The translations under genes and the position numbers were made by a program. The notes under the pieces were generated by a model that worked only from the letters and a program-made list of their open reading frames with translations, did no database searches and was not told where the DNA came from. Shown here in pieces: positions 3,001-33,000 of a DNA stretch of 64,000 bases; the first letter of the stretch is position 1; every line of letters starts with the position of its first letter. Origin of the DNA: Amoebophrya sp. A120 (lineage: Eukaryota; Protista; Dinoflagellata); assembly GCA_905178155.1 (NCBI GenBank), contig CAJINV010000015.1, positions 205,074 through 269,073 on the forward strand, in the 5' to 3' direction.

Positions 3001-6000
3001 TGGAGTGTAGTGCTAGTTGGGCAACCAGAACTTGTCATGCAAACAGTGCTAAGAGCCAATGGGTGGATTGGGTATTTTGCATGACAAATGAGAAGGGGGG
3101 GGAGTTGTGCACTGTCATACTACCATCGCGTCATCCGCCCCTTCCTGCACGTATCAAATGTAAAAGTGTCTGGGTCTGGAAGATTGCCAGGTTTGTCATG
3201 CACAATTTGCATGACTCCTGATGGCTGTGATGCATGCCCTAACATCACAGACTTTGTGAGGGCTTCCTGATGCCTATACCGCATGACAAATGCTCTTTCC
3301 GTGTAGCAAAACTTGGACTCTCTTTGCTGCTCATGCAATACAGATTTTTTCAGAATCCAAAATCAGCATGACAAGTTGGATTCTTCCAGACCCAGACACT
3401 TTTACAGTTGATAGCACGATTTCCGTTACCGCCACGGTGGCGCCTTCGGGGGCGAGGCTCATCACGGTCGGAAAATAGTCCTTCAGTTTTATCGTAAGGA
3501 AAAATCCCCCCGCCCCATATCAAAACGAAACTTCTGATGCTGGATTTGTGTACACAAATCAGATCGGTCTTTCTGGATAGCACTGCAGGCCGATACTAAG
3601 GGTAAGTAGAGAGGTTTTGGCCTAGGCACTTAGCACGATAAACGGCCGCGCTGTAGTAGGCCCAACAGCATGACAAACCGCCTGCACAATGCGGCGGAGA
3701 CTGCGGGGCTGCCTTCTTGCAAGACAGACACGATTTGTGACCACAAATCACCTTCGCAAATTTCCAAAAATATACCTTTGTAGTATAGGATTAGGAAGGG
3801 GGGATTTTTCCTTTTGATAAGTTTATCAGTCACCATGGTGGTGTACGGGCTCACGTAGGTGGTGTACGTGTCCGAAGCTTTCTGCTTGGCCTGCTCGATA
3901 TCAAATGCAAATATGTCCGGGTCTGGAAAGTTGGAACTTGTAATGCTGGTCTTGCATTCCTGTGAAATTTGTGTTGCATGACCAACAAAAGTGGCAGCCT
4001 CGCACGTGGTTGTACAAAAACGCAATTTATTCTCATGCGGAGTTCGTATGATAAAGCAGTGTGCAGCCTTGTCATGCTTTCCTGCATGAGGAACTGTTTT
4101 CATCATGCACATTTTAGCATCACAAATTTCCAGACCCAGACATATTTGCATTTGATACTCGAGACCCGCCACCGCCGTAGTCTTTACCTGGTTCATGGCT
4201 GCGTAGGGGTCGTTATCCCACGCAAAAACGTCCCCGCCCCGTAGTTGTGATGCAATTCTGCATGCCAAAAAAGTCTCTCATGCGGAGCCCATTGAGAAGC
4301 ATTTTCTATTTGTGTTTTGGAGTTATTTGCTATGCTAGAATCAGCATGCTTCTATGCTAGGTCTGTGATGCTTCTGAACTAGCTAAACAGGATTACACTA
4401 CGAGGACAAACTTGTCATGCCAAACACCCAAAGCTGGTTGATCTGTCTAGCAGATTCCCCATCTTGACTCTGTTGTGGGGACGTTTTTAATCAGGATAGT
4501 CGTCCCAGGCGTCGCGAATAGTCTGGCCCCATGTCTTGGTGGTCGCCGGAGTGGTGTATCCTGTGCAAAAGTATCGTACTCGTATAAACGCAGGTCTTGC
4601 ATTACAAATATTATTCGTAAGGTAAATCAGCATGACAAATTTTATTTCTCATGCTGAGAAAATTTGTCATGTATTTATTTTTATACGAGTAGGAGTACGA
4701 TACTTTTGCAATGCATATGGTGGTCTTGTCGCCCATTCCCGCGGAAGACTCCAGCGAGTGCTCTATCGAAAGGAAAAATCCGCCCTCCCCATATCGAAAA
4801 GATATGTCTCCGACGATTTGCGTTGCTGATTTGAGGCCACAAATCGCGTCTGTCTTGCAAGAAGACAAGGGCAAAAGCTTCGCCCCCATTATGGAGGCGA
4901 TTTGTCATGCTGCTGGGCCTAAAGGGGAGCCGTTTGCCATGCTGAACAACTAGACCGATACGCCCCTACCTAGCCTGGGGATGTGGCCGCAGTGCCATCC
5001 TGCAATACAAACCTGATTTGTGTACACAAATCCCGCATCACAGATTTCCATTTCGATATAGGGAGGGGGGATTTTTCCTTTCGATATGCTCAAACCCGCG
5101 TATCCCCGTCTGCCAAATGTTCTGAAACAGGCCGCGATGCGCTACGTTTTGGCGCCAGGTGGTCCATTCCTCCTTGAGGTGGCCGAATTTCATGTATGAC
5201 AGTGAACAACTCCACCGCCTCGCCCTCATTTGTCATGCAAAATCCCAAATCTAACTATCTTCTGCCTGTTAGAAGCACCTTGTGCATGACAACTTCCGAA
5301 GTAGGCCAAAACAGCACTACAATCCTCTCAGGAATTTGTCATGCAAAAGCGGCATGTTTTTGTTTGCCAGCGCTTGCGTTGCTGTTCACGCAACGCGAAT
5401 GAGGGGGAGGGGGAGTTGTGCACTCTCATATCATGGTCGTTGGGTCGCGGTGGTACCGCATGGCGTTCATCTGCAGCATTGACACGCCTTTCTTCAGCCC
5501 GTAAACGTGCCACCCCTGGAAGGTGTGCGAGGTCCACATGCGGTAGAGCACCATGCTGTCTGACATCGCCTCAGCCACGAACCGCGCGCTCAGCAACTTG
5601 GGACAGATCGCGACGGCCGCAAAGGTGTCCAGCGCGACGATACCCGCGACCAGCGCGAAGTTCACGATCGGGAAGATGGGTTTTTCGCCGATTTTCAGCA
5701 AAAATTCAATGCCCCGCCGCTCAAATTCAGAGAGGACAAAATTGTACTGCTCGAGCTGGTATCAACTGCAAACACGTAGTCTGGGTCTGGAAAGTTGTGA
5801 TGCATGTCAGTGAATAGAAAACACACTGTAATTATGCACCGCCAAGCATGACATATTACATGGCTGTAAAGCACGACACCGTAATGGCTCCGCGTTGCGT
5901 ATTCCGCATGACAAGCAGATTTTTTGCATGACAGACAAGAGCAGCTGTTGCTACCCACGCAATACAGAGCTCCGTGTCATGCCAGACTACCTAGCATGAC

Positions 6001-9000
6001 AAATCTGGCACTCTTGAAGACCCAGACATATTTGCATTTGATAGTTGGTTCTGGTGGTGTTCCTGGAGCAATTGGCCCGAGGAGTTTATTTTTCCACTCG
6101 TAGATTTCCGTCGGTTTTGCAGCCGCTGCTGCTTTTGCCGCTTCGCATCCTGGTCGAAGCTCATTTTTCCCTCGCTCTCCAAACGCGCGGCCTCCGCACG
6201 GGCGGAGTTGTGGCTCGAGGTCTCTGCTTGCCCGGCCCCAGCGAAATTCAGCTGTGTGGCCTTGGAGTTGAGCTGCCAACGCTGCCGCAACGTGGTCAGG
6301 CCGTCCGGCTGCAGCTGCAGTGGCTCCTCGCGCAGCGCGCCCTGGTACGTGGTATGCATTGCAAATATGTTTGGGTCTGGAAATTTGTGATGCTGGGTGG
6401 CGTATCGTGAGGAGGCCGCAAGTGCTGGCTCAGCATGACAAGTTTATTCCGAGCTTCTAGGTGTTGCCTATTCTGCATGACAAACTGCGTTTCTGCATGA
6501 CAGAAAAGTGGGGCTCTTGTTGGGTAACGTGCATGACAGATTTAAGAGTCATGTCAGACAAGCATGACAAGCATGCACTCTTCCAGACCCAGACATATTT
6601 GCACCCTGGTACGTGGCGACCTTGTACAAGGACCGACTCTATCCTGTGCAAAAGTATCGTACTCGTACTAATTGCAAATATGCATGACAAATTTTTTTCC
6701 TAAGGCAAAGCAGCATTACAAACTCCGCTTTCCTTCTTGCCAAAATTTGTAATGCAATTCATACTAGTACGATACTTTTGCAATGCATAGACTCCAGCTC
6801 CCGTCGTCGTCCCCGAAGAGCATGAGCATCTTGCGCATGCTGTCTTCGGTCAGGTCGGTGAACAGAATGGTCATACTGTCCGCGCCCTTATCCGCCTGGT
6901 AGCGGAGGTACTTGATAAACTCCTGCGCACTGTTGCGCATCTTGTACAGGTACTCGTTCCATTTGCTATGAATGTTGTGCAGTTCCTCCTCCAGGTAAAC
7001 CGCTCGCACGGACTTTTTCTCCACTTCGCCACCACCTTCGTTTGTGACCCGCAGGCCTCCCTTCTGTTGCACTTCCTCCATACCCGTGCGGAGTTGGGTG
7101 AGATGAAAATGAATGTGCAGGAGGGGCGTCTCCAGGTCGTTTTTCAACTTCTCCAGCGCTCTGTCATCTTCTTCTTCATCCCTTTTCGTCTCGATCATCA
7201 GCGCCTGTGCGATGAGTTGGTGATCGTCATTGTACTGCGCAATCGATTTATCCGCAATGCTGTACTTGGAGTGCCCAAACATATCGTGGTCGGGCAGCAG
7301 CTTGTCATTGTGCATCAAAACCATAGTCGTAATTTTTTCGGCGTCGTTCAGGTGTCCTCGCTGCTGCGCACTTGCCATCGCGGCTTCCTCGTTTTGGTTT
7401 GCGGAGTTCCTACCGTCCTCGTTTTCATCCAAATCAGAGTCGTTCGCAGCGTCGGAGTCCTCATCTTCCGGAGACCCTGCAACAGCCCGGCCTGTACCTC
7501 GGCGGCCAAATGGAGTGCCTGTCGTCGTGCCAGCATATTGGTGTGCCAGTCCGCCGGAGGCATAATCCACCTCCATCGCATCAGGGTTCAGTTGCTGACC
7601 ACTTCCAGCTGCTCCATATGCAACCGCCAAACCCTGGCTTCGCTCTCTCTGCCGTCGATTGCAGGCTTGACGGAAGGAATCCGCGGCCCGCTCGCCCAGC
7701 GTCTCCGCGTGATTGATGCACGTGCGCGCGACATTTTCGAAACCCACACTCTGGCTGGTGTAGGTGCAGCGCAAATTCGCGTTGCGGCGGGAGGCGAGGG
7801 TTCGGCGACACAATTCTTCGTCATCACTGCTGGCGCATGAACTCTCAACTGCGAGTTCGCTGGCTGGGCCGGAGGCCGTGCTGCCGTCGGAATCTTCATC
7901 ACAATCGCTACCCTGAACAGGTGGGTTGTTCTTATCCGATTCTTTCTGTTGCAAACCCCCCCGCGGGCTCGTCGATCCAGCTTTTGCAGGCGTAGTTGCA
8001 CCCGCCTCACCCGGTTGCAGGTCCATCCCAAAGCTTGGCGGCTTCGTCCCCACCTCGTGAGCGCTATTCGCCGGTGTCTGGGCTTCCTTTGTGTCCGTGA
8101 ACTCGCCCGCTTTTGGTGTGTTGGCTTTTCTTTGCTTTGCTTCCTCGTCCGCGGCTTTCTGCTGGGCTTCCTTTTCCTGCGCTTCCTTTCGGGCCTCCTC
8201 TTCCTTTTTCGCTATTTCATACTCGTGGGTCTGCTTGCTTTTATTCGCAGTTGCAAAGTTTTTGTACTTCTCCATCCGTTTTTGTCGGAGTTCGTGTATT
8301 TTCTTAATGGTCTCGTCGTAGGACTTGAGGTGTATCAAATGTAAAAATGTCTGGGCCTGGAAGATTGCCAGGCTTGTCATGCACGTTTTGCATGACTCCT
8401 GATGTCTGTGATGCATGCCCTAGCATCACAGATTTTGTGAGGGCTTCCTGCTGATGCCTATACTGCATGACAAATGCTCTTTCCGTGTAGCAAAACTTGG
8501 ACTCTCTTTGCCGCTCATGCAATACAGATTTTTCTAGAATCCAAAATCAGCATGACAAGTTGGATTCTTCCAGACCCAGACACTTTTACGGTTGATAAGG
8601 TGCTTTGCGAGCTCGGTCCAGTCGCTGCTGAACCGCTGCTTCTGGCCCGCCTTAGGATTTTCTGCACTCGGGGGAGGATCGTAATGCGTGACCACGAGTT
8701 TCTGTACCTCTGCGTCCTGCTTATACCACGGAAACTTCTTGGTAATGACCAGGTCTGCCAATTTGCTGATGTTGGGCTCGTATGAACTGCCAAAGTATAA
8801 TCGCACTCGTAGTAATTGCAGTCATGCATTAAATTTCTCTTAAGGTAAATCCGCATTACAAAATTTCTTTCTCATGCTAAGCAAACTAGTGATGCAATTA
8901 TTATATGCGAGTGCGATACTTTTGGTTTTGCAATGCATAGCTCGATCACGTCGTTGAACGTTTTCATCGAGTCGAGTCCGTTGATATCAAATGTAAAAAT

Positions 9001-12000
9001 GTCTGGGTCTGGAAGAATGCAACTTGTCATGCTAAATCTGAAGCATGCAAAAATCTGTGTTGCAGGATTACCAAAAGCCGTCCAGTTTTGACCAAGTCGG
9101 GAGGGAGTTTCTCATGCAGGACAGGCACGAGAGAGATCGCACAGAATCTGTCATGCTAGGTCCTGCATTCCAGACCTCACGGGTCATGGAAAAGCTAGAT
9201 GACAAATCGCTCACTCTTCCAGACCCAGACATATTTGCATTTGATAGTTGATTTTCTGTGCTGGAAGTCCTCGGCCCAGGGGATCATCTGGATGGCGGGT
9301 GTTCGCGGGGAAAATTTCAGCGTCCCCATGCTTCAACCACGGCAAATTTTCTACTTCGGGAGCGACCTTGTCGCGAAAGTAGTGGTATGGATTGCAAAAG
9401 TGTCCGGGTCTGGAAGATTCTAAACTTGTAATGCTGTCTCTGGATTCTAAAAAAATGTGCATTGCATGACCAGCAAGAGCGTTCCAGTTTGTGCTATGCG
9501 GAGAGGGCATTTCTCATGCGGTAGAGGCATTGCAATTTGCGATTCGCAAAGTCCTCTAAAAATATGTGATGCTAGGGCATGCATCACGGACATCATAGGT
9601 CATGCAAAATATGCATGACAAACCTGGCAATCTTCCAGACCCAGACATTTTTGCAGTTGATAAGTGCGCGGCCGACAAAATCTCCTCGTACTCGGGTGGC
9701 TGCATGTCATCCCGTATCAACTGTAAAAGTGTCTGGGTCTGGAAAGTTGGAACTTGTGATGCTAACTTTGGACTCTAAAAAAATGTGTATTGCATGACCA
9801 GCAAGAGGAGCCACATTTGTGCTACGCGAGGAGGTCATTTGTCATGCGGAAATGGCATCAGGAAGCTTTCCAAAAATCTGTGATGCTGGGTCATGCGTTA
9901 CAAGCATCATGGGTCATGCCAGACAAGCATGACAAGCCTTCCATTCTTCCAGACCCAGACATTTTTACATTTGATATCCCGCTTTGCCTTCCTGCGTTGC
10001 TGCTCCAGCTCCCATTGCGTGGCAGCAGCGGCCTGTTTGGAAAAGCTTGGCCGCGGCGATTGTGCTGGAGCTGCTCGGGACTGCGTCGGTGTTGCAGCGT
10101 CGTCCAGATCAGCCTGGACTGCTTGTGGCAGAAGTTGGAGTTGTATCAAATGCAAAAATGTCTGGGTCTGTAAGATTTCCAGGTTTGTCATGCATATTTC
10201 GCATGAGCTATGATGCCTGTAATGCATGACCTAGCATGACAGATTTTTTGCGGGTATCTTGATGCCTATCCCGCATGACAAATGCCCTCTCCGCGGACCA
10301 AAAACTGGACGCCTCTTGCTGCTCATGCAATACAGATTTTTTTAGATTTGAAAAATAGCGTCACAAGTTGCATTCTTCCAGACCCAGACATTTTTGCAAT
10401 CCATAAGTTGGAGTTGCTGCTGCCCGTCGGCCGGCGGCATGTCGACGTCCCCACTTTGCTATGCATTGCAAAAGCCTCGTACTAGTATAAATTGCAATAC
10501 AAGTTTCCTTAGCATGAGCAATGGAATTTGTCATGCGGATTTGCCTTATAAAAAGATTTGTAATGCAAGACTTGCATCTATACGAGTACGAATACGATGC
10601 TTTTGCACGGCATATTTGCCCCGGCATGGTCCTCTGCTTCTCCAGCTCCGCTGCTTTCTGCAGCTTCTCCAGCTCCGCAGCTTTCTTCATTTTCTCCGCC
10701 GCTCTTTGCTGCAGCTTCTCGAGCTGGGCCTTCAGCCGCTTGGTGCCGTCAATGGCGAGCGGTACCGCGACCGCCTTGGTCAGCGTGAAGGCATTATCGA
10801 AAGGAAAAACTCCCCCTCCCCATATTGAAAATGTATGTTTCCGAAAATTTGTGTTGCTGATTTGAGGTCACAAATCGCCTTTGTGTTGCAAGAAGACCAG
10901 GGCAGAAGCTGCCGCCCCATTATGGAAGCCGTTTGTCATGCTGTTTGGCCTAAAGGGGAGCTGTTTGCCATGCTGAACAACTAGACCCAGACGCCTCTGC
11001 CTAGGCTGGGTATCTGGCCGCAATGCCTTCTTGCAATACAAAGCGCAGTTGTGTACACAAATCCAACATCAGAAATTCTGTTTTGATATGGGGAGGGAAG
11101 ATTTTTCATTTTGATAGGCATTGGCGGTTTTGGACTGCGAGTACACCGCGTCGTTCAGATTTACCTTGTATCAAATGTAAAAATGTCTGGGTCTGGAAGA
11201 TTCTGAGACTTGTCATGCATGTTTTGCATGACCCAGGATGTCTGTAATGCACGACGTAGCATCACAGATTTTTAGAGGGCTTCCTGATGGCTGCTCCGCA
11301 TGACAAACGCTCTCCCCGCCGCGTAGCACAAACTAGACTCCTCTTGCTGGTCATGCAATACAGATTTTTTTACAGACCAGAGTTAGCATCACAAGTTCCA
11401 ATTCTTCCAGACCCAGACATTTCTACATTTGATATCTTGCTGTTGTCATACACCGTCTGGTACGTGCGCCACTGCAGCTGCGTCTCCTGCAACAGAGATT
11501 CCTGCAATTGTGACATCTTCGACGTACCAAAGTCGAATTCCGGAGAGGAATATGAAATGCAAATATCATGTCCTTTGGGCCAGGAAACGGAAATTTGTTT
11601 TCGTTTCCTAAACATGTCCTAAATCCTAAACCCCAAACTGTCAGTTTGGGGTTTAGGATTTAGCAAGAACAACTTTAGAAAGAGCAACTCTACGGATCTA
11701 CCAAGTACTGACTGCAGTAGCAAGGCAGCACGCGTGACAATGTTTCGGGGTACTGCCCTGTGATTGTTGCATATTCCGCATAAAGAAGTAGTCGCACCAT
11801 TATTTTTGCAATACACACTACCAGCGATGACCCCGCTTGTTCGCCACATGCATCTCACAAACTCGACGGCCCTGACGTCATATGCAACAACTTTTGCAAA
11901 AATCAAAATGTTCCACACCCGGACATTATATTCCCCCCACTGGATAAGGAAACCCCAGAAACCTTTGATTTCGCCGCGACCAGTTCCGTCAGTCCCTCTT

Positions 12001-15000
12001 CCAGGAACGCGAGGGAAAACGTGGAGGGCGCGAAGGACCCGGTGAGATCAGGATTCAGGGAAGAGACACTCGACGTGACTGCATTCGTGCCTGTCACCAT
12101 CGTGCCCGAAGTGCTCGTTGGGAACCAGTGCTGGTGGTCCGACCACATGGTCATGGCCGCTTCCACCTCGTATTTCTTCTGCTTCATCTTCTTTTCCGTT
12201 TGCTGCAGTAATTGCGTTTGCTTCAGCTGCATCAGGAACGTAACCGCCTGCAACCGCTCGATTTTCTCTTCCAACAAAAAGTCGTCCGTGTAGTGCTTGA
12301 CACTCTGTATTGTGAGGAAAAATCCCCCCTCCCCATATTGAAAACGCATTCGTCTGAAAATTTGTGACGCAGATTTGAGGCCACAAATCCTGTCTGTCTT
12401 GCGGGAAGGCAAAGCCAGAGAGTCCGCCGCATTATGCCGGCGGTTTGTGATGCTGTTGGGCTTACAGAGCCGACATCTGCCATGCTAGTCCCCTACGTCA
12501 AAACCTCTCGACACAGGCTTGGCATATGCCTGCAGTCCTCTCCAGCACGACAGACCTGATTCGTGTACGCAAATCCAGCATCAGAAACTTCGTTTCGATA
12601 TGGGGAGGGGGGGATTTTTCATTTTGACACTCTGCACCACTTCCTCGTGGGTCGGCAGTGGATTCTCCTCGGGTAGTTGTTCACCAGAGAGGGCGTTTTC
12701 CAGGTCTTTCTTCAACTTGTCAAGCTTTGCAGATTTTTCCTCTTCTTCCGCAGTAGGCGATACTGCAGCAGCTTGTTCCGGCACAGCGGTGGCGCCTTCG
12801 CTGCCTGCAGCGGTGGGGGAAGGGCGTTGAAATAAACTTCCAAATAATGAGAAGCCACCCGGTTGCTCCTGCTGCTGTTCCTTCGCCGGTGCAGTTAGTT
12901 CTGCAATCTGCTCCCTCAATTCCTTGATCCTCTTCTCCCGCTCCTCCCGCTTGACGCTCGGCTTGTCGAGCAGGACTGCGCCCTCCTTTTTCATCACTTC
13001 TTCTGCATCAGCTAAGTTCAGCGCAATGCGCAGTTCGTTCACCGCCCAATCCGGGAAATTGACGTAGTCTAAGACGCCAACGTACTCCAAAAACCGCTGT
13101 TTCCGCTTCTCTCGGAACTCCATCTCGCTACTCGTTTTACGGAACGTGGTCGGAATTGATGCAGGAGTTTTCCTTTGAGGTGCGCCGCTCGTTCGATCCG
13201 CACCGCCAGTTTGATGCAGCTCTCCTCGGTGGCTTTCTACGTGGTCCACAGTGTTGAAGTTCGTGTAGTCCAGGTCAAAGATCTCCTGCATGCCAATGTG
13301 CTCCGTGTCGTAGACCGCCTGCTTATCCGAGCCGAGAAAAGTTGTATGAAATGCAAAAATGTCTGGGTCTGGAAACTTGTGATGCTAAAATGTGCATGAT
13401 GAAAATACTTCCGAATGCAGTCCGGCATGACAACTTCCCACAATTCTTTCTCGTAGGCAATCCGCATGAGAAACTGCGTTTTTGCATGACAAAAGAGGCT
13501 GCGACTTTTGTTGGTAAATATGCAAAACAGATTTTCTAGGTATGGAAAGCTAGCATTACAAGTTCCAACCTTCCAGACCCAGACATTTTTACAATCCATA
13601 AGTTGCAACGTCCAGCAGCATCTGATGGAAGTTTTCGTACTTGTCAAACCTGGTTAATTCCTGCCGCAAATCCGATTCCGTGATGAAGTGCAGGTGCACC
13701 GTGATGTGGTTTTTGTTGTGTTTGGAATTGGATTCAGCACTCCTCTCCTTCATCTCCCGACTGGTGTGCGTGACCCAGAAGTACAAGTCCCCCGCGATAT
13801 CGTGACTGCTCCCCGTCTTCACCGACTTGGCCGTCACCACTCGACCCAGAATCTCGACTGTCCGCTTCTGGATGAAGCTTTGTTGCGGCTGTTCGGTTGA
13901 ATCATCGACATTGGAGCCTATGCCATGATTGATGTCCCCCGGCGCATATCAAATGCAAATATGTCTGGGGCTGGAAGAATGCAACTTGTGATGCTGCATT
14001 TGGATTCCAAAAAAATTTGTATTGCATGAGTACCAAAGGAAAGACAATTTTTGCTACGCTGAGAAGGCATTTGTCATGCGGAATACGCATCAAGAAGCCC
14101 TCAAAAAATCTGTATTGCTAGGGGATGCATCACAGACATCATGGCTCATGCAAAACGTGCATGACAAGTGTCAGAATCTTCCAGACCCAGACGTTTTTAC
14201 AGTTGATAGCGCACTATCGACGATCCAATCGCCACTCTGAATGTACCGGCTGAGTGCGCTTTCCGGGTTCAGTTTTTGGTTCACCGGGAACTTCTATGCA
14301 TTGCAAATATGTCTGGGTCTGGAAACCTGTGATGCTGAACTGTTCATGATGAAAACGCTGCCGAATGCAGCCAAGCATGACAAAATTGCAGAACGGTTTC
14401 TCATACGCTGTCTGCATGAGAAACTGCGTTTTTGGACGACAGAAGACGGCACGGCTTGTACTATCGCTGGCCATGCAATACAGATTTTTCAGGAATGTAA
14501 GACCAGCATTACAAGTTCCCACTTTCCAGAAAGACATATTTGCATTTGATAACTCCAGTCGGAAGTCCGGGTCGTACGGGAAAGCAGCCCGACTCGCTGA
14601 TCGGATGTCTTCCGGAACGAGCTTGTAGTGTTCCGCCACGGATCGGCTGTTTTGCCGGTGCGTGGTGAGAAAATCGTTGGCTTCTAGAGTTTATGGATTG
14701 CAAAAATGTCTGGGTCTGGAAGAGTGGAACTTGTATTGCATGTCTTGCATTCCTGAAAAATCTGTAATGCACAGCCAGCGAGAAAGGCGCTACTTTTTCG
14801 TCCTGCAAAAACGCAGTTTGTCATGCGTGCTACGCATCAGACGGCGTCAAGTATGCTTGTCATGCTTGGCTGCACTTGAGAGCGGCAGTCTTATCCAAAC
14901 TTCAGCATCACAAATTTCCAGACCCAGACATATTTGCTTCCCATAGAGTTGGAGATAGTGTGTGTTTCCAGGTGTATTCGAACATTTCTTTCTTCATTTG

Positions 15001-21000: not shown

Positions 21001-24000
21001 GAGCGGGAGCCATCGCGTTTCGACTTCTTCCACAATCTGCTGCGATCGCTCTTCCTTGTCGAAAATCTCTTGCTCTTCCTTGGTCCGGTGCTCCGGCTTC
21101 TTTCGGATGATCTCGTCCAATGTTCGGAACTTCGTTAGCCGGTCCGATTTGTCCAAAACCGATTCCCGATTCTCGTTCTCGAAGATCTCCATGTTGCTGT
21201 GGATAGTCGGGAACAGCAGTGACGCAAGCTGTTCGTACGCGTCTTTCAAATACGAGTGCATCTTTTCTAACGACCAATGCTTGCGGATGAATTCCGCCGT
21301 CGTTTCCAGCGGAAAGGTGATGTAGGTCTGCCCCACGCTGTTCAGCGCTTTCTGCAATCTCCGGAGTTCGCTGATCTCGGTCTCTCCCGGATCGACATCC
21401 CTTTTCTCTGCGGAAGACTGGGAAAGTTTGTCGGCCTGTCGCCGACTGGACCCGATAAACGCTCTCCCGCCCGCGGAGGAGCTGCTGTGTCGTCTTCTAG
21501 ACGAAAGATTGCTCTTCTTTTTCTTTTCTGACACTGTTTTGGGGTCGAAATTTTGCACCAAAAGATACGCTTTCTCGTACTTTTCTCGGTGCTCGATCAC
21601 TTTATTCAGCAGCGCCCAAACTTCGTCGCGCGTCGCCATCTGGGCTCCGCCGTCCTTTCGGTCTTGTTCTTTCTTGAGCGCCTTTTCGATAGCATCGGTT
21701 AGGTCCTTGCGCAGCTGGATCTCGTTGTTCTTCTGGTCTTCTGCTGCCGCGACTAAAATCAACCGCTTCAGTTCGGAAAAAATGAAGTTCTGCAGGTCGG
21801 TATCGCGGACTAGGGAAAATTCCACGGACACGCTCTGCGGCTGCCACAAGTTTTCGATCACGACCGCATTCTTCCTTTCCTCCGCCATGTGCTCCTCCTC
21901 GAGATCTAGAAGTGCACCGGCCGCTTTTTTCAATTCGTTCTCATCTTCTTTGTTCTCCGTTTGTTCCTCGTCGTCAGAGAGGCGAAATTTCGGCAGCTGA
22001 ATCATGCCACTGCGGATGAAGGTGCGGTTATCCTGTGTAAAAACGTCCCCACACCAGAGTCAAGATGGGAAATCTGCTAGACAAATCAGCCAGCTTTGGT
22101 TGTTTGGCATGACAAATTTGTCCGCGTAGTGTAATCCTGTTTAGCTAGTTCAGAAGCATCACAGATCTCGCATAGTATGCTGATTCTAGCATTACAAATT
22201 CCAAAAAACGACTAGAAAATGGCTCTCGTGGGCGTCCGCATGAGAAACTTTTTTGACATGCAGATCCGCATGACAACTCTGGGGTGGGGACATTTTTACT
22301 CAGGATAGCGGTAGAAAAGGTCCAGTTTCTCATTTTCACCGAGCTCGTGATATTTTTTCTTCTTCGAGCCACCAACCGCAGCGGAAGCAACGGCACCGAA
22401 CCGTCGGACGGTACCAAGCCAACCCGTCGGACTCGTTTCTTCTTCCCCCCGCATGGTGAGCGCGTGCCGCATGTCTTCCTCGGTCTCGGTCGCGAGGCGC
22501 TTCGCTACGTCTGGACTGGTCGCCATACTCTGCAGTTCCTGGAACAGCGACGGCATCTGGTTCTCCATCTGCCGTATCCCACAGAAAAAAGCAGGCAGGG
22601 CAGATTTGTAATGCAAAAGTAAATACACAGAAAAATCTGTCATGGGCGGCCCCATAGCATGCTGTTTAGGATATGCAATCAATGCAGATTTTTTGGTGTA
22701 TATATTTTTGCATTACAAATGTGACCTGCCGGCTTTTTTCTGTGTGATATGCCGCTGCACGTACTTAATCCGTTCCACCGCCATGCGCGGCAACACTTCC
22801 TTCGCATCCACCGAGGCACGGATGCCGTAGTGCGACCGGAATTCTACCATGGTTTGCAGCCGCACTGGAAGAAGAATTCGAACCGGGTTTGTGGCCATAC
22901 CGAGGAGGGAAAGCGCCTGCTTCGTGCTGTCAAAATTTGTTCCTGTGTAGCTGCTTCTACCAGAAGTAGTACCTGCTCCCCCGTCGTCCGCAGAAGTACT
23001 GGCACCACCAGCAGGCGCGTTTTGCGTGAATTGGAGGTCAAAGTTGAAATTCTGCACGTGCGAGTTGATATTGATGTTCTGCCCGCTGAACAAGATTTTG
23101 AAGCGTCGTCGCCCGTCAACCCAATTCTTTTTCACCTCCTCATCTGAAAACTTCTCCTTGTTCTTCAACCAAGTAAGCGCCTCTTCAATGTTCGCAAAGG
23201 TTTTCGAGTCGGCATTTTCCTTCATCATGTTCAGGTCTTCCAACTGTTCCTGGGCTCTTTTCTCCGCGCGCCGTATCGACGGGCGCCACACCTTCCTCCG
23301 TACCGTCTTCAGATTGTTCTTCAGCCTCTGTCGCTTGCCCACGCGTGCAGCTGGAGAAGCTTCTGCTGCTGTAGTACCAGGACCAGGTTCTTGTTGCCCC
23401 ATCGGATCGGCTATCCTGTGCAAAAGTATCGCAGTCGTAGCTGCAATTGCAGTCTTGCATTGCAATTCTTTCTCTTCTTAAGGTGAGTCCGCAATTATAC
23501 AAATTCCATTTCTCCATCTCATGCTGAGAAGATTTGTAAATGCAATTTTTACTTGTAGTACTACGATACTTCTGCAATTCATATCGTCCTCGCCTTGATT
23601 CAACTGAACTTCGTTGTCGTCTTCGTCGTACCAGGAAATTTATCGCTAGAAAAAACTGTTTCAATTTGTGATGCAGAAGATGCAACATTAGCACAGAAGC
23701 AGAACAAGTGCTTGTCTTGCTACACATGCAACTACACGTTGGGTTCGTACTCGTAGCCTTGCTCTTCATCTTTGGGGCGCATGCGCATGCACGGCGAATT
23801 TTGTCTGCTATCGAGAACATCAAACAACTTGTGTTGCAAAGCTCGCAAAATCCTATAACAGTAAAACATTTTTTTCCACCACGATAAAATGGTGACATCC
23901 TTCAATTCCAGATCCAGATCGTCGTTCCGCACGGTGCTGAACCTCGTCCCGAGCATACCTTGGTTCTTCCATCTTCTCTATCAAATGCAAAAACGTCTGG

Positions 24001-27000
24001 GTCTGGAAGATTCTGAGACTTGTCATGCACGTTTTGCATGAGCCCTGATCGATCTGTGATGCATGCCCTAGCATCGCAGATTTTTTGAGGGTTTTTTGAT
24101 GCCTATTCCGCATGACAAATACCCCTACTACCACGTGGCGAAAATTACACTCCCTTTGCTGCTCGTGCAATACAGATTTTTTTGGAATCCAAATGTAGCA
24201 TCACAAGTTGCATGCTTCCAGACCCAGACATTTTTGCACATGATATTCTCCGCATTTCGGAGAAGTATTTCGCTTTCCACTCGTCCTCGTGCTGTTTGCG
24301 CTCGACTAGCTTCTATGCATTGCAAATATGTCTGGGTCTGGAAACTTGTGATGCTAAGAGTGAATGAGAGTTCCACTGCAATACGAAGCCAAGCATGGCA
24401 AATTTTTGGGCTCCTGGGTGTTGCGTGTTCCGCATGGCAAACTGCGTTTTTGCATGACAGGTAAGAGGACCACTGTGTGCCCATGCATCACAGATTCTTG
24501 AGTCATGTCAGACAAGCATGACAAATGTAGCAATCTTCCAGACCCAGACATTTTTACAGTTGATAGCTTCTGCACGGCTTCCTTAAAGTCCAAATCTTCC
24601 GCGCTCTTCGGCGCGCTGGTGCTAGTGAAAGTTGTTTCATTTTCCTCGTCGGTAGAAGTAGACGCTGCTTCTTGCAACGCCGATAAGTTACTACTGCCCT
24701 CCACGTCACCTCTGATTAAAGAGGTTAAATCGTAAAACCCCTGCAATTTTTTCGCGTTCTTCGCATTCGTTTGCTCCGAGAACAGAGACGCCGGCGTGGT
24801 GCCGACAAGCTGCGCGTTTCCGTTGTAATTTGCCTTCTCGGCGAGGTTTGCATTCACCAGTGGGAGCTCCAGTTGCACCCGCGGCATCACGCCGATGGGG
24901 TAGCCGGACGTCCCACTCAGGGTGTTCGTGTAGCTGCGGCTCGCAATATACATTGCAAAAGTACTATCGTACCACCTCCGTAACAACTGCAGTCAGTCAT
25001 GCATTACAAGTTTCTTTCTCGCAGCAAATCCGCATTAGAAGTTCAATTTGTCATGCTTAGCCACCTTCGTAATGCAATGTCTACTAGTACAAGTACGATG
25101 CTTTTGCAATGCATACGCAACATCGCGGTACCACTGGGACAAGGCCTCCACCGCCTGGTCGTTGCTTCGCCCAAAGTCCTCATACAGGGTAAAACCACGC
25201 GTTCGGACGTCGTAGAGCTCCTGCTGGCGCCAGAAGCTGCGCTCTTTCATGATGCGCTGCATGCCCTTGGACACTGCGGACGAAGATGACACTGCGGACC
25301 AACGTCCGGGGGACTTCTCATCCTCATTCTGATCCACCAATTTCGTGTACTTTGTGTCGTATCGGTGTGCCAGCCGGATCTGGGACTGGTTCGGATGCAG
25401 CGTGTGCTCGTTTTGCAACCGCAAACGGTTTTCTGTTTCGCCGTAGACGGAGTTGTCGATCTCGATCACGTTTTCTTGTGCAGGGATATTTTGGCCATTT
25501 TGGTTTTGCTGGGGAATTTCCTGTTTCGCGGTCTGCTCACGTTTGACGATAAATTCCTTGGCGAAAGTCTGGAACAACTTTTCCCTTCGCTTCAGCTATG
25601 CAAGAAAAAAACTGTGTAAGCGTAAATCTGTGATGCGGAAAATGCAAAATAGTTACACTTGTCATGCCAGACAGCCATGAAGTCCTATTGCGCAGGTGTT
25701 TTCCCGTACTAATTCTGCATGACAGGATTTCTGTGTCATGCAGAACAAATTTGTCATGCTGTCACCCGAAGACACCTACACTGACACAGTTTTTTCGTTC
25801 CATATCAGCCCGATCTCTTTCAAGCCGTCAAAGTGGTCCCAATGGGCGATCTCCTTCTGGTACGTCGGCGTCTTCGGGACTTTCTGCACTTCCACCACGT
25901 CGATGACCTTCGCAAACATTGTGTGTTTCTTGCGGAGCTTCTGTTTATTCGCAGGTGCTGTTCCTGACGCAGCATTCGCTCCTGCAGTTGCACCAGGAAC
26001 AGCTGTTGCAGCACCAGCTGCACCATTTCCTGCTCTATTGCTTCCACTTCCGCCGCCCACGATTTGCAACCCTCCCACGACCGATTTTTTGGCCACAGTC
26101 TCATCCTCATCGTTAGTCTTTACGTGCTTCGGGATCAGCGTGTCGCTGTTTTGCGTGTGCAGTACCATGGTCTTCTTTGCAATGACGTCTGGTAGCCGCT
26201 GCACCAGCTCGATTTCCTCGATGTTGCTGTTCACGTTTTCCAGCCAAGCTCGGGCCACCTGCTGCCGCCGTTTCAACGACTCCGCCCCCGGAGTGGTTTT
26301 TGTACGCAAATTTTCCTTCTGGTCTCCCTTGGTCGCAGCGGAGCTGATGGCAATTAGAAATTCCCGCAAATCCACTTCCTTTTGGATTGAGTAGCTCGCC
26401 CGCTCTAACGTCGTTTTCAATTCCAATTTTGCTTCGAACGTTCGCAGGGGTTCCGCCTCACTTTGCACCAGCCACCAGGCCTGGCCGAAGTACGCAGGCC
26501 CCGCGAAGGTCGCATCTAAGTGAATAGCCGATTCGAAATGTCGCATCGGGATTTCGTAGACCTTGTACCCGATAGCACCCTCATCCCACGATCCGCGCGC
26601 GCGCGCGAACGCCAAGGCGTCGTCATTCCGGATTGCTTCCAACGCGAGTGTACCGATGCGAATGTGGTAAAAGGGGTTCTTCATCGCGCGCAACCCGACG
26701 TATTTCGTGTAATCAGCGCGCAGCTCCTCGACTTTGGTTATCATGCCAGAGCTGTGGTCACTGCGCGGTGATGACGAAGCGGGATTCGAAGTAGAATCTC
26801 CCTCGCCGGCGATATTTTCCTCCTCAATGACCTGCTTCTGACGCTGGAACGCTTCCCACGCGTCCGGGAATTTTGCATCCAGCGTGAGCAATTCCTGTTT
26901 CATATCAAAATGAAAAAACCCCCCTCCCCATATCGAAACGGAAATTTGTGATGCTGATTTGTGGCCACAAATCGTCTCTGTCTTGCATATAGGGTCATAG

Positions 27001-30000
27001 GAGCCATTTTACGCATTCCAGAGCAAGTCTGTCATGCGCTTTCGACTGCTGCGAACCTGTTTGCCATGCGCAATTGCTAGCCTTCTGCATACCCAAACAG
27101 GCTCAGAAAATGCAGCCAAGCACTTTCTGCAAGACAGATCTGATTTGTGTACGCAAATCCAGCATCAGAAACTTCGTTTCGATATGGGGAGGGGGGATTT
27201 TTCCTCTCAATATTTCAAGGGGTAAGGGTCCATACCGGTATTACTCGCGTCCATGTGGACGAACACACGCACCTATCAAATGCAAATATGTCTGGGTCTG
27301 GGAGAATGTAATGTCTGTCATGCACGACTAGCTTGGCTCTTAAGTCTGTCATGCACGCCACCCAAAAGTCACACTTCTCTGTCATGCAGAAACGCAGTTT
27401 GTCATGCAGATAGGCAATACTATAGCAACTCCAAAACTTGTCTTGCTTGCCTGTCAAGGAAGGCGTCCAAATGATTCGCCGAACAGCATCACAAGTTTCC
27501 AGACCCAGACATATTTGCAAGTGATAGCACCACGCCCAGCACGGCCTTCGCCCGCATGTCTTCAAACTCGTCCTCCTTCTTGTCCGGCCGCTTTTCCGTG
27601 CCCTCGAAGTCCCAGCGAAGCTCGGAGAGCCAGTTTTCGTAGCGGCGCAGCGCTTCGTCTTGAATCTTCGCCGGGTCGCGGACCGGTGGGATCGGAGTGC
27701 TGTGTAGTTGCTGCCCGGCAGCCTGCGGAGCTCCAGTAGAATCTACGTCCATACCTATCAAATGTAAAAACGTACCCACACCAGAGTTGTAATGCAGATT
27801 TGCAACGACAAAGACATTTGTGATGCGCATCCGCATGAGAGCCATTTCCAATCGTGTTTTGGAATTTGTGATGCTGTGAACGGGATCAGCAGGTCGATTT
27901 GTCATGCGGCTTTGCTTGCTAACTTGCACTACCTTGCGGACTGAAACTTGTCATGCGTGACTCCCAAAACTCCTAGGTTTGTGTTGCAAAATCCCCATCT
28001 TGACTCTGGTGTGGGTACGTTTTTACTCAGGATAATACCGTCTGGGGAGTTGGTGGTCTTGAAAGTTGACGAGGAAAGCATGCCTACCTCAACACCCTCT
28101 GCGGCCTGTTTGATGGCCGCGAGCTGTTTGTTGTTTGCGTCTTCAATTTTCCCGCGGCTTTTGTCCAAAAACAAGGCCCACTGCTCGGCCAGCGCCTGCA
28201 GCGTGTTGTATTCGCGGATTTTGTCAATTGGGTTTTGCTGCGTGTACTTCCGGGCCTCGCTGCCGCCAAAAAGAGCGCCAACGGCTCCCATGGCCATGGC
28301 GCCGTACCTATCCTCAGTAAAAACATCCCCACCCCAGAGTTGTCATGCAAATGCGCATTAACAGGAACAGCTGTAATGCGCAGCTCCATGAGAGGCATTT
28401 TCAGTCGCGTTTTGGAATTTGTAATGCTGCAAACAGGATGAGAGAATGGCTTTCTCATGCGGCTTCCCTTGCCAACGACCACTACACTGCAGAGGGAAAC
28501 TTGTCATGCACAGCTCCCAAAACTTGGAGATTTGTGTTGCTAGATTCCCAACTTGACTATGGGGTGGGGACGTTTTTGCTTAGGATAGTACCCCACCTGG
28601 ACTCCCGCAACCGTGGCCGCGTAGCCGGCTGTGGTGTATGCACTGCAAATATGTCTGGGTCTGGAAACTTGTAATGCAAGTCAGTCAATAAGGAATGCAC
28701 TGTAATGCGTCGCCAAGCATGACAAGTTTTTTCTTGCTTCTGCGCTGCGTATTCCGCATGAGCAACTGCGTTTCTGCATGACAGGCGAGAGAGCCTGTTT
28801 GTGGCCACGCAATACAGAGTTAAGGGTCATGCCGGACCAGCATGACAAACCTCGGAATCTTCTTCCAGACCCAGACATTTGTGCATGCGATATGGTGGCG
28901 GTAGTGGCCACGGCGGTGCCGGCGGTAGCCGCCCCGGCCGTGGCGAAGGTTCCGGAAACCGCGGCGACTGCCGTGCTGCTGGACCCGAAGGCGGCCAGGC
29001 CCAGGCCGCCTACCGCCCCAATGCCCGATGCAAACAGCCCGGCGATCAGCACACCCACCACGGCCCCCGCCAGCACGCCGCCCCCAACGATGCCGACATT
29101 CGATATCTGGGCCTTTTTCTGCAGGTACCAGGCCTGTTTGGTCAAATCGAATTTCTTTTCCAACGTAACTCGAAACCCTTGGTATTGGAACAGAAACTTG
29201 CTGTACAGCAAATCCTGCGTCTTAATCACGAGCAAGTCCTTGTTGTGGAATTCGTGGAGTCGCTTCTTCTCCTGCGACTCCGACTGGGTTTTGTACTGGA
29301 TCAACCGTTGCTCCTCACTGTTCGCCCCGATCAATGCGCTGCTGGTAGCATCCTTGCTGGATTTTTCAAGGACTGCGGAGTACAGGGGTAACAGTTTGTC
29401 GGTGACCCACGGTAGGAGTACGGGTGGCGTTGCCGCAGGAGCGGGGGCACTGGTGCCCATTGGGACGTCAGCATTTCCATTTCCACCTGCCGCTGCGGTC
29501 GTTATAGTTATTCCTGAAGGTAACTGCGTGGCGTCGATCGCTTTTAAAAGTTGTTCTGACGTCATAACCGCGTTTTCCGCTACAACTTTTTTCAGGGCAG
29601 TGACTTTGCTGCACACGGTTTTTTGAAGATGTCCTTGGCCTTGCTGCTGCTGCCCGACATCTACTTCCCCGACGAGGAAATCATAACCCGCTGGGGCTGG
29701 GAGCAACGCCGTGGGCGGAGAAATTATGCCGGTTATCTTATAATCCCCGATCGCATCTGAAGAAATGTCCTGCAGTTTTTCGTCGAGCGACTGTTTCTCG
29801 AAAAACTCATCCTCGAAGGAAAGATTTCTGCTTCCTTCCAACCCGCCCATCTGTAGCGACAGGATGTCGCTTTCCTTCTCCGCGAGCAAAAATCCCTGCG
29901 TCACCATCGCCGTCACTCGCGCCGTGCCCTTCTTGCCTTGGCGACTGGTGCGGCCCAGGGCCTGCGCCTCTTCCCGGGATTCCGCGAGGAAGGTCAGTTC

Positions 30001-33000
30001 GACGTGCAAACTATGCATTGCAAAAGTATCGTACTCGGAGTAATTGCATTTACGCATTACAAATCTGTTTATTAAGGTAAATCAGCATTACAAATTTGAT
30101 TTGTAATGCTGGGGGAATTTGTAATGCAATTTGTACTAGTACGATACTTGTTTTGCATTGCATACAAACCGCCAAACGGTTCGATTTTGTTCGTTTCGTA
30201 GTCCGTGCCGCGGCCCGCCAAGTTTGTGTATCAACTGTAAAAATGTCTGGGTCTGGAAGAATCCAACTTGTCATGCTGATTTTGGATTCTAAAAAAATCT
30301 GTATTGCATGAGCAGCAAAGAGAGTCCAAGTCTTGCTACACGGAAAGAGCATTTGTCATGCGGTATAGGCATCAGGAAGCCCTCACAAAATCTGTGATGC
30401 TCGGGCATGCATCACAGACATCAGGAGTCATGCAAAATGTGCATGACAAACCTGGCAATCTTCCAGAGGACCCAGACATTTTTACATTTGATATTGTGGA
30501 AACAATGACCATACCTGGCCGGAAGGGCTCCATCTCCCCGGACCCCACATCGGCGTTGCTCTGCCTCAAATACTCCTTGACATCCCGCTCGGGCCAGGAC
30601 TGCTTCAACGCCTGCGAGATCAGCGTTGCGTTCTCAATACTGCGGCAAATGCACAGCACGCCGCGGTTTCGACGGAGTTCCTTCAGCACATTCTCCACGA
30701 CCTTCTGAATCCAACGGTCGCGCTGGGACAACGGTGCGGTTTTCTTCACGACTTTCGAAGCTCCTGCACTGCCACTTGTACTGGTTGTCGTGACTGCATT
30801 GGAAGTAGGTTGATGTTGTTCACCCGACGATGGCGCGACCCCAGTCGGCCCCGCTCCACCTCGTGCGAGGACCATCAGTTGTTCGGTGCCGATCAAATCC
30901 GGTGCGTAATTCACGAAGCGCTTCTTCCTGGACAGCGGCATCCGCCGGGATTTGAGCTGATACGCCTGCTTCAGCGATTGCCTGACTGCTGGGGACCCAA
31001 GTGTGCCAGTCACGCCGTAAAGAAATTTGTACCGGCGGAAAAAAGCGAAGTTGGACAAAAAGTTCGTTGGTAACGATTCCGGGGTGACAGGCAAGCCGTG
31101 CATCACTTCCAGAATTTGGTGAATACCATCCGACCAGTGGAGGGAATCCTGCGTGATACCGGTCGCGCCGGACACCGGCTTAATCGCGTCATTTTGGACC
31201 ACGTAGTCGACGTTTTCCTGGAAGGTGAAGTACGTATCAAATGTAAAAGTATCTGGGTCTGGAAACTTGTGATGCTGAATTGCGCATGATTGAAGCGCTT
31301 CCAATGGCAGCCAAGCATGACAAGTTTTTGAGAGGTCTGCTGATGCCTAGCACGCATTACAAATTGCGTTTTCGCATGACAAAGAAAGCCTCTGTTTTGC
31401 TGCTCACGCAACACAGATTTTCCAGGAGTGCATGACACGCATTACAAGTTCCAATTTTCCAGACCCAGACATTTTTACATTTGATAGTACGCCAGTAAGG
31501 CAGATTTTACCAACCGTGGCAACGTGTCTTTAACGTGGCGCTCCCAGTGTCTCGGGATCGGGACAAGACCGTTAGTTGTCGACTGCGAACTACCGGCGTC
31601 CGTCGACGCGGTATCTGTCCTGTACCCACCGATGTTCTGGTACGCCCGGCCAAAGAAGTCCTGTGCTTTCGGCACTGGCTTGAAGCTTTTGTTGGTGTTT
31701 ATCTGAGAAACACCATCGCCATCATGCGGCAAGGTTTGAAACAAGCCGCCTTTGCTCTTTTTGTCCTCATTCGGTGCGATATGAGGGCGCACAAGAACTC
31801 GTCCCCCTCGTCTGCCTAATTTGTCAAGAACATGCACAATCCTATAACCCTATTGCTGCCCCTTTGCACAATTTGGGTATGCATGGCAATTTTTCGGAAA
31901 AAAACCGCGTGGAGGGCTTGTCATGAAGCACAGGCACCAGCACCACGTGTTTGAATTTCGTGTGCTACGTTTGGCAATATTGCTGTTGATTCACAAAAAT
32001 CACATCGTACTACAAATCAGGCGGACGACGGGGGGGAGTTTGTTCTTGTGCACTTCCATATTTGAACAGCATCTCATCCACATCCTCGAAAAACTCCGAC
32101 AGCGTCTGCGAGCTCGGCGCAAGCTTCGTCTCCGGCACGGTGCCCGGAACAGGCGCGGGAAGGAGGAGCAAGTCCTCTTCGTGCTCGATTTTCAGGACGA
32201 TGGTCTTCGGAGAATTGTCTTGATTTTCTTCCTCCATGATGAAATCGTCAACATGTCCGTCCGCCCGCGGATCCAAAGTAGAACCACTGCCGTTCTGTTC
32301 CTCCAGCTTTTCCTGCTCTTTCCGCAAGTTTTCGACCATTTCCTTCTCTTTCAATTCGAACTCCTTCTTCACTTCCGGGTCCCGCCAGTCGATGGTTTTT
32401 TCCAAGAACTTCTGCAAGTAATCCTCCAACGCGTTGGTTGTGGAATCTGGCAACGTCGCGGACAACTCAATCCCCACCGGATTGTTCAGTGGCTGCTCGC
32501 GGATCTTCTGCAAAATCGCCGGGGTGAGGACCAGAATCTTGCTGTTCTTATCCTGCTGAGTCGCATGTTTGTTCGCGGCGACCATGCCACTCGTTTGCGA
32601 AATTCCCAACTCAGCTAAACTCTGTCGCAGTTCCACCGCGTCGAAAAAGGGGCCGGATTTGTTGCGGTTCATCGCGTATCAAGTGTAAATATGTCTGGGT
32701 CCTCTGGAATGTTGCAAGACTTGTCATGCGCATTTTGCACGACCCATGATGTCTGTGATGCCTGCCCTAGCATCACAAATTTTGTGAGGGCTTTCTGATG
32801 CGTATCCTGCATGACAAATGCCCTCGCCGTGTAGCACAAAATCGAATCCTCTTGCTGGTCATGCAACACAGAATTTTTTGGAATCCGAAGACAGCATCAG
32901 AAGTTCTTGCATCCTTCCAGACCCTGACATTTTTGCATTTGATATCGCGATCGGCGTGAAATTCGGGAGCCGTCGGACAATGTCTCCGTAGAGCAATATC

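What the first reader, a model, noticed from the sequence alone, without database searches (positions are those of the whole stretch)
3152..30493. The same element works in either orientation: fold-back RNA splicing or IES-like DNA elimination
Seen: near-identical family-D copies lie in opposite orientations (3152-3413 and 8333-8597 versus 18248-18509 and 30229-30493). Family G does the same (17897 and 37386 versus 49123). The excision rule holds in both. Established: spliceosomal signals are strand-asymmetric; ciliate IESs are symmetric and removed from DNA leaving one repeat copy. Inference: the signal is symmetric. Either the TIR stem brings the two DRs together in pre-mRNA, or the elements are cut from DNA in some stage or nucleus.
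Basis: partly seen in the sequence, partly recalled or inferred. Interest (0 to 1): 0.82.

Follow-up and report, generated by a model that had tools for sequence, protein, structure and literature searches.

The report
Hairpin introns removed in either orientation
In the marine parasite Amoebophrya, one giant gene is interrupted by about 90 short mobile hairpin elements, already known as 'introners', that lie in either direction, lack normal splice signals and are missing from what are likely its transcripts, so they are likely cut out of the RNA by a machine that reads their symmetric ends rather than deleted from the DNA.

Summary
Observation confirmed. The four D copies are 93-95% identical as reverse complements, 64-66% same-strand. 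All 90 catalogued elements sit in one minus-strand gene; removing element + 5 nt opens a single 10,481-codon frame. A database protein identical to these exons is labelled Amoebophrya sp. A120, so these are the introners of Farhat 2021. No orientation bias: family D 7:7 here, 18:17 in a second assembly. No GT-AG register beyond chance. Contigs of a probable RNA run lack element + 5 nt at copies of both orientations; a DNA-like run keeps them in place. DNA elimination is therefore unlikely, though not excluded. Not in the papers searched: the orientation symmetry for A120, and a first fix on the cut: at mismatched direct repeats the transcript-upstream copy is kept (3 shown, 1 inferred; 2 reach position 4). 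Either-orientation introners are known in Polarella, but with canonical sites. Symmetry does not exclude a spliceosome. D3, D4 and G were not shown on RNA. The scan noted a similar case in Prorocentrum (unchecked).

The parts
3152..3413 (.). Family D introner, copy 1 (orientation B); perfect 5-nt direct repeats
   Evidence: skipped with 5 nt (3146->3414) in contigs of X5 and X10; terminal stem in transcript orientation, z -8.8
8333..8597 (.). Family D copy 2 (orientation B)
   Evidence: X5 record 13 joins 8327 to 8598; X1 contig 6764-8361 runs from exon into the element at depth 25
18248..18509 (.). Family D copy 3 (orientation A)
   Evidence: removal needed for the open frame; terminal stem, z -8.1; not shown on RNA
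30229..30493 (.). Family D copy 4 (orientation A), 3-nt insertion in one inverted repeat; interrupts a conserved SecA-like segment
9386..9662 (.). More distant family D member (about 80%) in orientation A; direct repeat mismatched at transcript position 1
   Evidence: joint 9380->9663 in X5 and X9; X1 contig 9222-9421 shows it in place
17897..18202 (.). Family G copy 1
   Evidence: frame only; X1 contig 16437-17923 runs into it
37386..37691 (.). Family G copy 2, same orientation as 17897
   Evidence: frame only
49123..49427 (.). Family G copy 3, opposite orientation; direct repeats match at 3 of 5
   Evidence: frame only
53..334 (.). Element with direct repeat mismatched at transcript position 1; upstream copy kept
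   Evidence: joint 47->335, both=4; opposite orientation to 4214-4498, which is also skipped
441..652 (.). Element with direct repeat mismatched at transcript position 4; upstream copy kept
   Evidence: joint 435->653, both=1, contiguous in X5 record 9
5760..6043 (.). D-like element (orientation B) with mismatch at transcript position 4; upstream copy likely kept
   Evidence: X5 record 10 piece starts at 6043 with no other letters; the joint row itself was not shown
6353..6611 (.). D-like element whose transcript-5' eight bases copy the exon beyond the target site; obeys the 5-nt rule
   Evidence: X5 record 10 leaves 31 letters between 6339 and 6790, the number that removal of this and 6640-6789 predicts
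1..55942 (-). Host gene: one open frame of 10,481 codons after removal of 90 elements (43% of the span); SecA DEAD-like and SecA_PP_bind matches; both ends lie outside or were not located
   Evidence: P0001 and paralogue P0002 named Amoebophrya sp. A120

Best explanation
These are Amoebophrya A120 introners, short non-autonomous terminal-inverted-repeat elements that lie in exons in either orientation between 5-nt direct repeats and are likely removed from the pre-mRNA, not the DNA, by a machine that is predicted to read the paired, identical ends (likely the organism's modified, U1-less spliceosome). Steps: (1) insertion at essentially random exon sites with a 5-bp target duplication (inferred from anatomy); (2) the transcript folds into a long terminal stem whichever way the element lies (computed, 89 of 89 transcript-strand and 88 of 89 reverse); (3) element + 5 nt is absent from probable transcripts for both orientations (shown in contigs of a run guessed to be RNA); (4) the cut is offset: at, or one base before, the first base of the element, and 4-5 nt beyond its last base, so the upstream repeat stays exonic and the downstream repeat leaves with the intron (2 informative sites, one of them inferred); (5) catalysis by a spliceosome that uses the stem instead of U1 and GT/AG (inferred, untested). 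Odds: RNA-level removal about 0.92; the full mechanism with a spliceosomal catalyst about 0.55.
For: Frame: of offsets 0-8 only 5 gives one frame across 90 sites; all six registers within the repeat stay open. Reads: 13 of the 15 joints shown are exact element + 5 skips, plus record 13 (D2); skipped copies include orientation A (1919, 2281, 3899, 9386) and B (3152, 8333) of the D group, and 53 versus 1570/2567/4214 of another. DNA-like X1 contigs cross exon-element borders unbroken at depth 20-27, with exon-only bins at 30-38. X5 exon depth falls from about 5 near the gene's 3' side to 0 at 16.7-18.0 kb where X1 has 33; X9 has more element depth than X5 but almost no exon depth. Symmetry: D 7:7, wider group 16:18, nearest neighbours 17 same / 21 opposite, p 0.63; second assembly 45:37, p 0.44, D 18:17. 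GT/GC-AG possible at 7 of 89 on the coding strand, 5 of 89 on the other, 5.7 expected. Farhat 2021 reports RNA-seq-supported A120 introns with TAT + 7 + AAA inverted repeats, 5-bp direct repeats, nearly all spliceosomal proteins, U2/U4/U5/U6 but no U1.
Against: X5, X9 and X10 are RNA by the tool's guess only, are one sample, and are contigs of depth 2-5; the three raw RNA runs did not cover the exons. No sign of selection for RNA pairing: G-U versus A-C in the stem 105:88 (p 0.25) here and 85:79 in the second assembly; a 10:0 excess at positions 11-14 (permutation p 0.04) did not repeat (3:3). Positions 4-10 of the stem pair in only 67%. No conserved donor, acceptor or strand-specific branch motif supports a spliceosome. 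The near-identical opposite-orientation copies 18248 and 30229 were not shown on RNA. The register rests on two position-4 mismatches. Only one DNA-like run was laid, it may be the assembly's own source, and 3280 of its joints were not shown.
Confidence: 0.55

Rival explanations
1. RNA-level removal by a non-spliceosomal cut-and-ligate system that measures from the foot of the stem, as discussed for euglenid nonconventional introns, releasing linear or circular introns without lariats.
For: No GT/AG in any register and no strand-specific motif; strong terminal stems in both orientations; euglenid introns with inverted repeats and TSD-like repeats are released as circles by an unknown mechanism (review passage); U1 not found in A120.
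Against: A120 keeps a near-complete spliceosome and 35% canonical introns; tunicates show that a spliceosome can adapt to mostly non-GT/AG introns (abstract). No such enzyme was looked for here: no genome is held.
Confidence: 0.28
2. RNA-level removal in which the two ends are read as linear sequence (first three bases and the A-run at the 5' end, the U-run and final AUA at the 3' end, possibly giving a branch A a fixed 6-8 nt from the 3' cut), with the hairpin only a by-product of transposon ancestry.
For: Positions 1-3 are 98% and 11-15 are 89% complementary while 4-10 vary; no G-U excess over A-C; a branch-like pentamer lies in the last 70 nt of 94 of 183 elements on the transcript strand and 95 of 183 on the other.
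Against: Beyond position 15 the families differ in sequence yet each keeps complementarity (80% ungapped), though mobilisation alone can explain that.
Confidence: 0.11
3. IES-like DNA elimination: the elements are cut from the DNA in some stage or nucleus, leaving one repeat copy.
For: Anatomy resembles a transposon-derived IES; symmetric ends; stage and nature of the runs are not on record; rare empty sites would be dropped from contigs (tool text).
Against: Elements in place at single-copy depth in X1; joined forms seen only in probable RNA with uneven exon depth; at two position-4 mismatches the transcript-upstream copy is kept, which a cut centred in the repeat would not give; no transposase reported in A120; none of the 10 listed (of 154) papers in a search pairing Amoebophrya with DNA elimination mentions Amoebophrya; no germline/soma nuclear split is known to me in this lineage (recalled).
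Confidence: 0.04
4. The joined forms are reverse-transcriptase jumps across hairpins at direct repeats, and the gene is dead or is decoded by ribosome bypassing.
For: Hairpin plus short direct repeat is the known setting for template switching (recalled); only cDNA-type contigs were seen.
Against: 10,481 codons without a stop while elements diverged to 70-80%; conserved segment restored at 30229 and 30012; ten successive junctions from 1564 to 4551 all at depth 5 in X5; at 3 of 15 mismatched repeats the one full in-frame codon differs at its first or second base, against matched-codon bypassing (read).
Confidence: 0.02

Closest known systems
Amoebophrya sp. A120 introner elements (Farhat et al. 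2021, PMC7789003; seen: abstract, sections 10, 16, 20, search passages, supplement parts 2-3; figures not held)
   Same: Same organism label; TAT + 7 variable + AAA inverted repeats, 5-bp direct repeats, mean 267 nt here versus about 240 nt, non-GT-AG, hairpin model.
   Different: Nothing in kind. The text I searched has no statement on element orientation and says the border position 'remains unknown'; both are addressed here.
Polarella glacialis and Aureococcus introners (Roy et al., bioRxiv 10.1101/2020.10.14.339549; seen: passages)
   Same: DNA-transposon-like introners with target duplications; several classes make introns in either orientation.
   Different: Those recruit GT/GC/GA and AG from the element or the duplication, and the classes for which it is stated show an orientation bias; here no register is canonical beyond chance and no bias is seen.
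Euglenid nonconventional introns (review PMC11282704; seen: passages)
   Same: Non-canonical borders, inverted repeats pairing the ends, TSD-like repeats, mechanism unknown.
   Different: Different end consensus; released as circles (not testable here); no fixed 5-nt repeat.
Fritillaria non-GT/AG introns (bioRxiv 10.1101/2025.08.15.670264; seen: abstract; review passage)
   Same: MITE-like origin, genome-wide escape from GT/AG.
   Different: They keep preferred end dinucleotides and adapted U1/U2AF; here the letters at the cut are free and U1 was not found.
Ciliate internal eliminated sequences (search listing and abstract starts only; rest recalled)
   Same: Transposon-derived, interrupt exons, symmetric, one repeat copy left.
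   Different: Removed from DNA in a separate somatic nucleus by a domesticated transposase; here the DNA-like run keeps the elements.

Membership tests
Amoebophrya A120 introner elements | Genome is Amoebophrya A120 | tested here: met
   P0001 matches the window's exons letter for letter over shared parts and is named Amoebophrya sp. A120
Amoebophrya A120 introner elements | Terminal inverted repeat starting TAT, 7 variable bases, then an A-run | tested here: met
   Position tables over 89 elements; pairing by position over 90
Amoebophrya A120 introner elements | 3-5 nt direct repeats at the borders | tested here: met
   75 of 90 perfect 5-nt repeats after re-reading 6353, 15 with 1-2 mismatches
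Amoebophrya A120 introner elements | Repeated in families; absent from transcripts; non-GT-AG | tested here: met
   (RNA status of the runs is the tool's guess)
U2-type GT-AG spliceosomal intron | GT/GC donor and AG acceptor in some register | tested here: not met
   7 of 89, 5.7 expected, 5 of 89 on the other strand; 8 versus 2 of 93 in the second assembly
U2-type GT-AG spliceosomal intron | Branch point and lariat release | not testable with these tools
   No strand-specific branch motif; no raw reads covered the gene
Ciliate-type IES | Absent from somatic DNA (empty sites in DNA reads) | tested here: inconclusive
   Elements in place in X1 at single-copy depth, none of 15 shown X1 joints is an element + 5 skip, but 3280 joints not shown, contigs drop rare forms, one run of unknown stage
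Ciliate-type IES | Nuclear dimorphism and a domesticated transposase | not testable with these tools
   No genome held; Farhat reports no transposase in A120
MITE (non-autonomous TIR transposon) | Short, non-coding, terminal inverted repeats, fixed-length target duplication, both orientations | tested here: met
MITE (non-autonomous TIR transposon) | Cognate autonomous transposase; empty orthologous site with one repeat copy | not tested
   No orthologue of the host gene among the 147 fetched loci (tblastn blank); no genome held
Euglenid-type nonconventional intron | Excised intron released as a full-length circle | not testable with these tools
   No raw RNA coverage; no such joint among the 15 shown

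The most novel reading that the evidence does not exclude
Amoebophrya removes tens of thousands of transposon hairpins by a non-spliceosomal, orientation-blind RNA ruler: it finds the terminal stem, cuts at its 5' foot and 4-5 bases past its 3' foot whatever the letters there, and religates, exactly undoing a 5-bp target duplication. This would be a second nuclear splicing system that makes any insertion of these elements into a gene harmless.
Probability: 0.28. Interest if true: 0.85.

Novelty: already known. Interest (0 to 1): 0.47.

Why it matters
The elements and their removal from transcripts were published in 2021, but how they are spliced is open and the cut position was left unknown. 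Two things seen here narrow it. The signal must be fully contained in the symmetric ends, since orientation is unbiased in two assemblies and both orientations are removed. Mismatched direct repeats (15 of 90 elements here) mark which copy survives, so existing RNA-seq could map the cut genome-wide to one base. If the offset cut holds, it defines a splice geometry without any fixed dinucleotide at the 3' cut. It also bears on annotation: the public model P0001 misreads the junction at 30229.

Tried and rejected
No whole genome is held, so no genome-wide count in A120; a second assembly served instead. No RNA holder was listed as such; raw RNA runs X6, X7 gave only element fragments and X8 nothing: no test. 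Laying DNA-like X1 swamped the joint table with repeat joints. Search for a full-length annotated protein among 901-2570-residue candidates found none. G-U excess at stem positions 11-14: not repeated. k-mer strand bias inside elements: best 5-mer p 2e-4 of 491 tests, not significant after correction. Folding energy transcript versus reverse strand: no difference, p 0.17. Family E leans one way (7:3 here including the reference copy, 9:2 in the second assembly) and family F the other way in the second assembly (1:5); with nine families tested I do not count it. G excess at repeat position 4 in the second assembly (39 of 93) is not seen in the window (25 of 89). Candidate 51419-52137 was dropped as false; 14 elements were added by eye. 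Offsets 2 and 8 keep frame like 5 and fail through single stops and through my special handling of 6353, so frame alone fixes the length modulo 3; the exact 5 comes from the repeats and. The inverted-repeat motif has no exact match in viral contigs. One paper on Aureococcus introners was not held, so that case is cited through Roy et al.
Full report
Observation. The four D copies have the stated coordinates, begin TAT, end ATA and are flanked by perfect 5-nt direct repeats. Copies 3152 and 8333 match 18248 and 30229 at 93.2-94.7% as reverse complements and 63.8-65.8% on the same strand; each element matches its own reverse complement at 64-66%, so orientation can be told and is truly opposite. 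G copies 17897 and 37386 are 90% alike in the same orientation, and 49123 is 90% alike in the opposite one. The repeat at 49123 matches at only 3 of 5 positions.

Anatomy. A scan gave 77 candidates; I dropped one as false and added 14 by eye after a masked search, giving 90 elements of 149-1190 nt, median 262, 43% of positions 1-55943. Of these 75 have perfect 5-nt repeats (after re-reading 6353 as 6353-6611) and 15 have one or two mismatches. Removing element + 5 nt everywhere gives one minus-strand frame of 10,481 codons from 55942 to 1; offsets 0-4 and 6-8 do not, although 2 and 8 fail only at a few sites. All six cut registers inside the repeat keep the frame open and differ at 7 residues. 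Two of 11 exons scanned match SecA_DEAD and SecA_PP_bind. After removal, 131 of 133 homologue alignments that span the 30229 junction and 129 of 130 at 30012 are ungapped there (150 proteins).

Identity. P0001, identical to the window's exons over shared parts, and the paralogue P0002 are named Amoebophrya sp. A120. Farhat et al. 2021 (PMC7789003; abstract, sections 10, 16, 20, passages, supplement parts 2-3 seen) describe RNA-seq-supported non-canonical introns of about 240 nt in A120, with inverted repeats of TAT + 7 + AAA, 3-5 nt direct repeats (5 bp in their example), a hairpin model, no U1 snRNA, no transposase, and a border position that 'remains unknown'. These are the same elements.

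Symmetry. All elements lie in one transcript, so orientation is relative to it. Family D (80% link) is 7:7, the wider group 16:18, nearest-neighbour pairs 17 same and 21 opposite, p 0.63. The 5' end and the reversed 3' end do not differ at any of 30 positions (smallest p 0.06); GT/GC-AG is possible in some register at 7 of 89 sites, against 5 of 89 on the other strand and 5.7 by chance. A motif scan of metagenome contigs gave 148 stretches, the 79 listed all from one other assembly, holding related but diverged elements (about 70-76%). Of 295 distinct candidates with repeats matching at 4 or 5 positions, 93 could be given a gene strand by a codon model trained on the window and 82 a family: 45 same, 37 opposite, p 0.44; D 18:17; E 9:2 and F 1:5 lean, which I do not count among nine families.

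RNA or DNA. Ten runs were listed, none on record as an RNA holder. In one search (1-20000) run X1 behaves as DNA: exon-only bins at 30-38, and contigs 628-1048, 6764-8361, 9222-9421 and 16437-17923 cross exon-element borders unbroken at depth 20-27. None of the 15 X1 joints shown is an element + 5 skip, but 3280 were not shown, contigs drop rare forms, and X1 may be the assembly's source. Raw RNA runs X6, X7 and X8 did not cover the exons. In one search (1-10459), 13 of 15 joints shown are exact element + 5 skips in X5 (four also in X10, one also in X9); 8 more were not shown and most carry the flag 'between: not known'. Record 13 joins 8327 directly to 8598 (D2). Skipped copies include 3152 and 8333 (orientation B) and 9386, 1919, 2281, 3899 (A) of the D group, and 53 versus 1570, 2567, 4214 of another. 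X5, X9 and X10 are RNA by guess and one sample; the falling exon depth away from the gene's 3' side and the lack of exon depth in element-rich X9 fit RNA better than DNA. Copies 18248, 30229 and G were not shown on RNA.

Where the cut lies. At 53 and 9386 (mismatch at transcript position 1) and 441 (position 4) the joint rows show that the transcript-upstream repeat copy is kept; at 5760 (position 4) the piece table implies the same. So the 5' cut is at the element's first base or one before, and the 3' cut 4-5 nt beyond its last base. Only the two position-4 sites argue against a cut centred in the repeat; no position-5 site was covered. Identity of the two repeats is not required.

Is the stem needed? 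Both orientations fold into a long terminal stem (z -8.8 and -8.1; 89 of 89 and 88 of 89). But G-U pairs are not favoured over A-C (105:88; 85:79), a local excess did not repeat, and folding energy does not differ by strand. Pairing in RNA is therefore plausible, not shown; reading of the ends as linear sequence remains open.

Mechanism. Most likely a non-autonomous element inserts either way with a 5-bp duplication, and the transcript loses the element plus the downstream copy, guided by the identical ends. I put RNA-level removal at about 0.92. For the catalyst I favour a modified spliceosome (0.55 with stem guidance), since A120 keeps nearly all its proteins and U2/U4/U5/U6 and tunicates show such adaptation (abstract); a cut-and-ligate system as discussed for euglenids gets 0.28, linear end-reading 0.11, DNA elimination 0.04, artefact or bypassing 0.02.

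Novelty. Either-orientation introners are in print for Polarella and Aureococcus, with canonical sites and, where stated, a bias (passages); Gozashti 2022 allowed for opposite-orientation copies in its method (passage) and Gozashti 2025 treats A120 families without an orientation statement in the passages seen. I found no statement of orientation independence or cut register for A120 in searches and in-text look-ups; figures and datasets were not visible and subscription journals are not covered. The system is known; the two details sharpen an open question. This scan's earlier notes hold nothing on this genome and one similar, unchecked case in Prorocentrum.

Noticed in passing
window 55944-64000: An introner-type end at 55944 is followed by about three 135-nt tandem units and a copia-like LTR retrotransposon (99% identical 317-nt repeats at 56397-56713 and 63684-64000; frames 63549-59539 with zinc knuckle and 59776-57731 with RVT_2). 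If the host gene continues, this intron exceeds 8 kb.
   Followed up: partly
window 38077-39266: A family F introner carries a nested insertion of about 860 nt with its own 63-nt inverted repeats (38306-39176) and a 5-nt direct repeat; the whole 1190 nt still obeys the element + 5 rule by frame.
   Followed up: partly
window 6353-6611: The eight terminal bases at one end copy the exon sequence just beyond the target site, suggesting a repair-templated end; 1 of 90 such full matches.
   Followed up: partly
window, all elements: The first nine bases come as a few shared cassettes (commonest in 29 of 180 ends) that are mixed across families and often differ between the two ends of one copy, as at 27756.
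   Followed up: no
window 1-55942: Insertion phase is uneven, 42:24:24, p 0.03; 11 of 17 repeat mismatches fall on third codon positions and 9 are synonymous.
   Followed up: no
window 30229-30493 and P0001, P0002: The public model P0001 misreads this junction and drops part of the next-upstream exon; paralogue P0002 shows a similar disturbance at nearly the same position, perhaps its own introner.
   Followed up: no
window 44681-45289: A 609-nt element with about 180-nt inverted repeats and the same TAT...ATA ends and 5-nt repeat; longer than the other families.
   Followed up: no
L001-L079 (contigs listed): A second assembly carries the same end motif and 5-nt repeats with elements about 70-76% like the window's, so the system spans more than one lineage.
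   Followed up: partly
window element positions, runs X9 and X10: High element depth with almost no exon depth; could be unspliced RNA, retained copies in other transcripts, DNA carry-over or stable excised introns.
   Followed up: no
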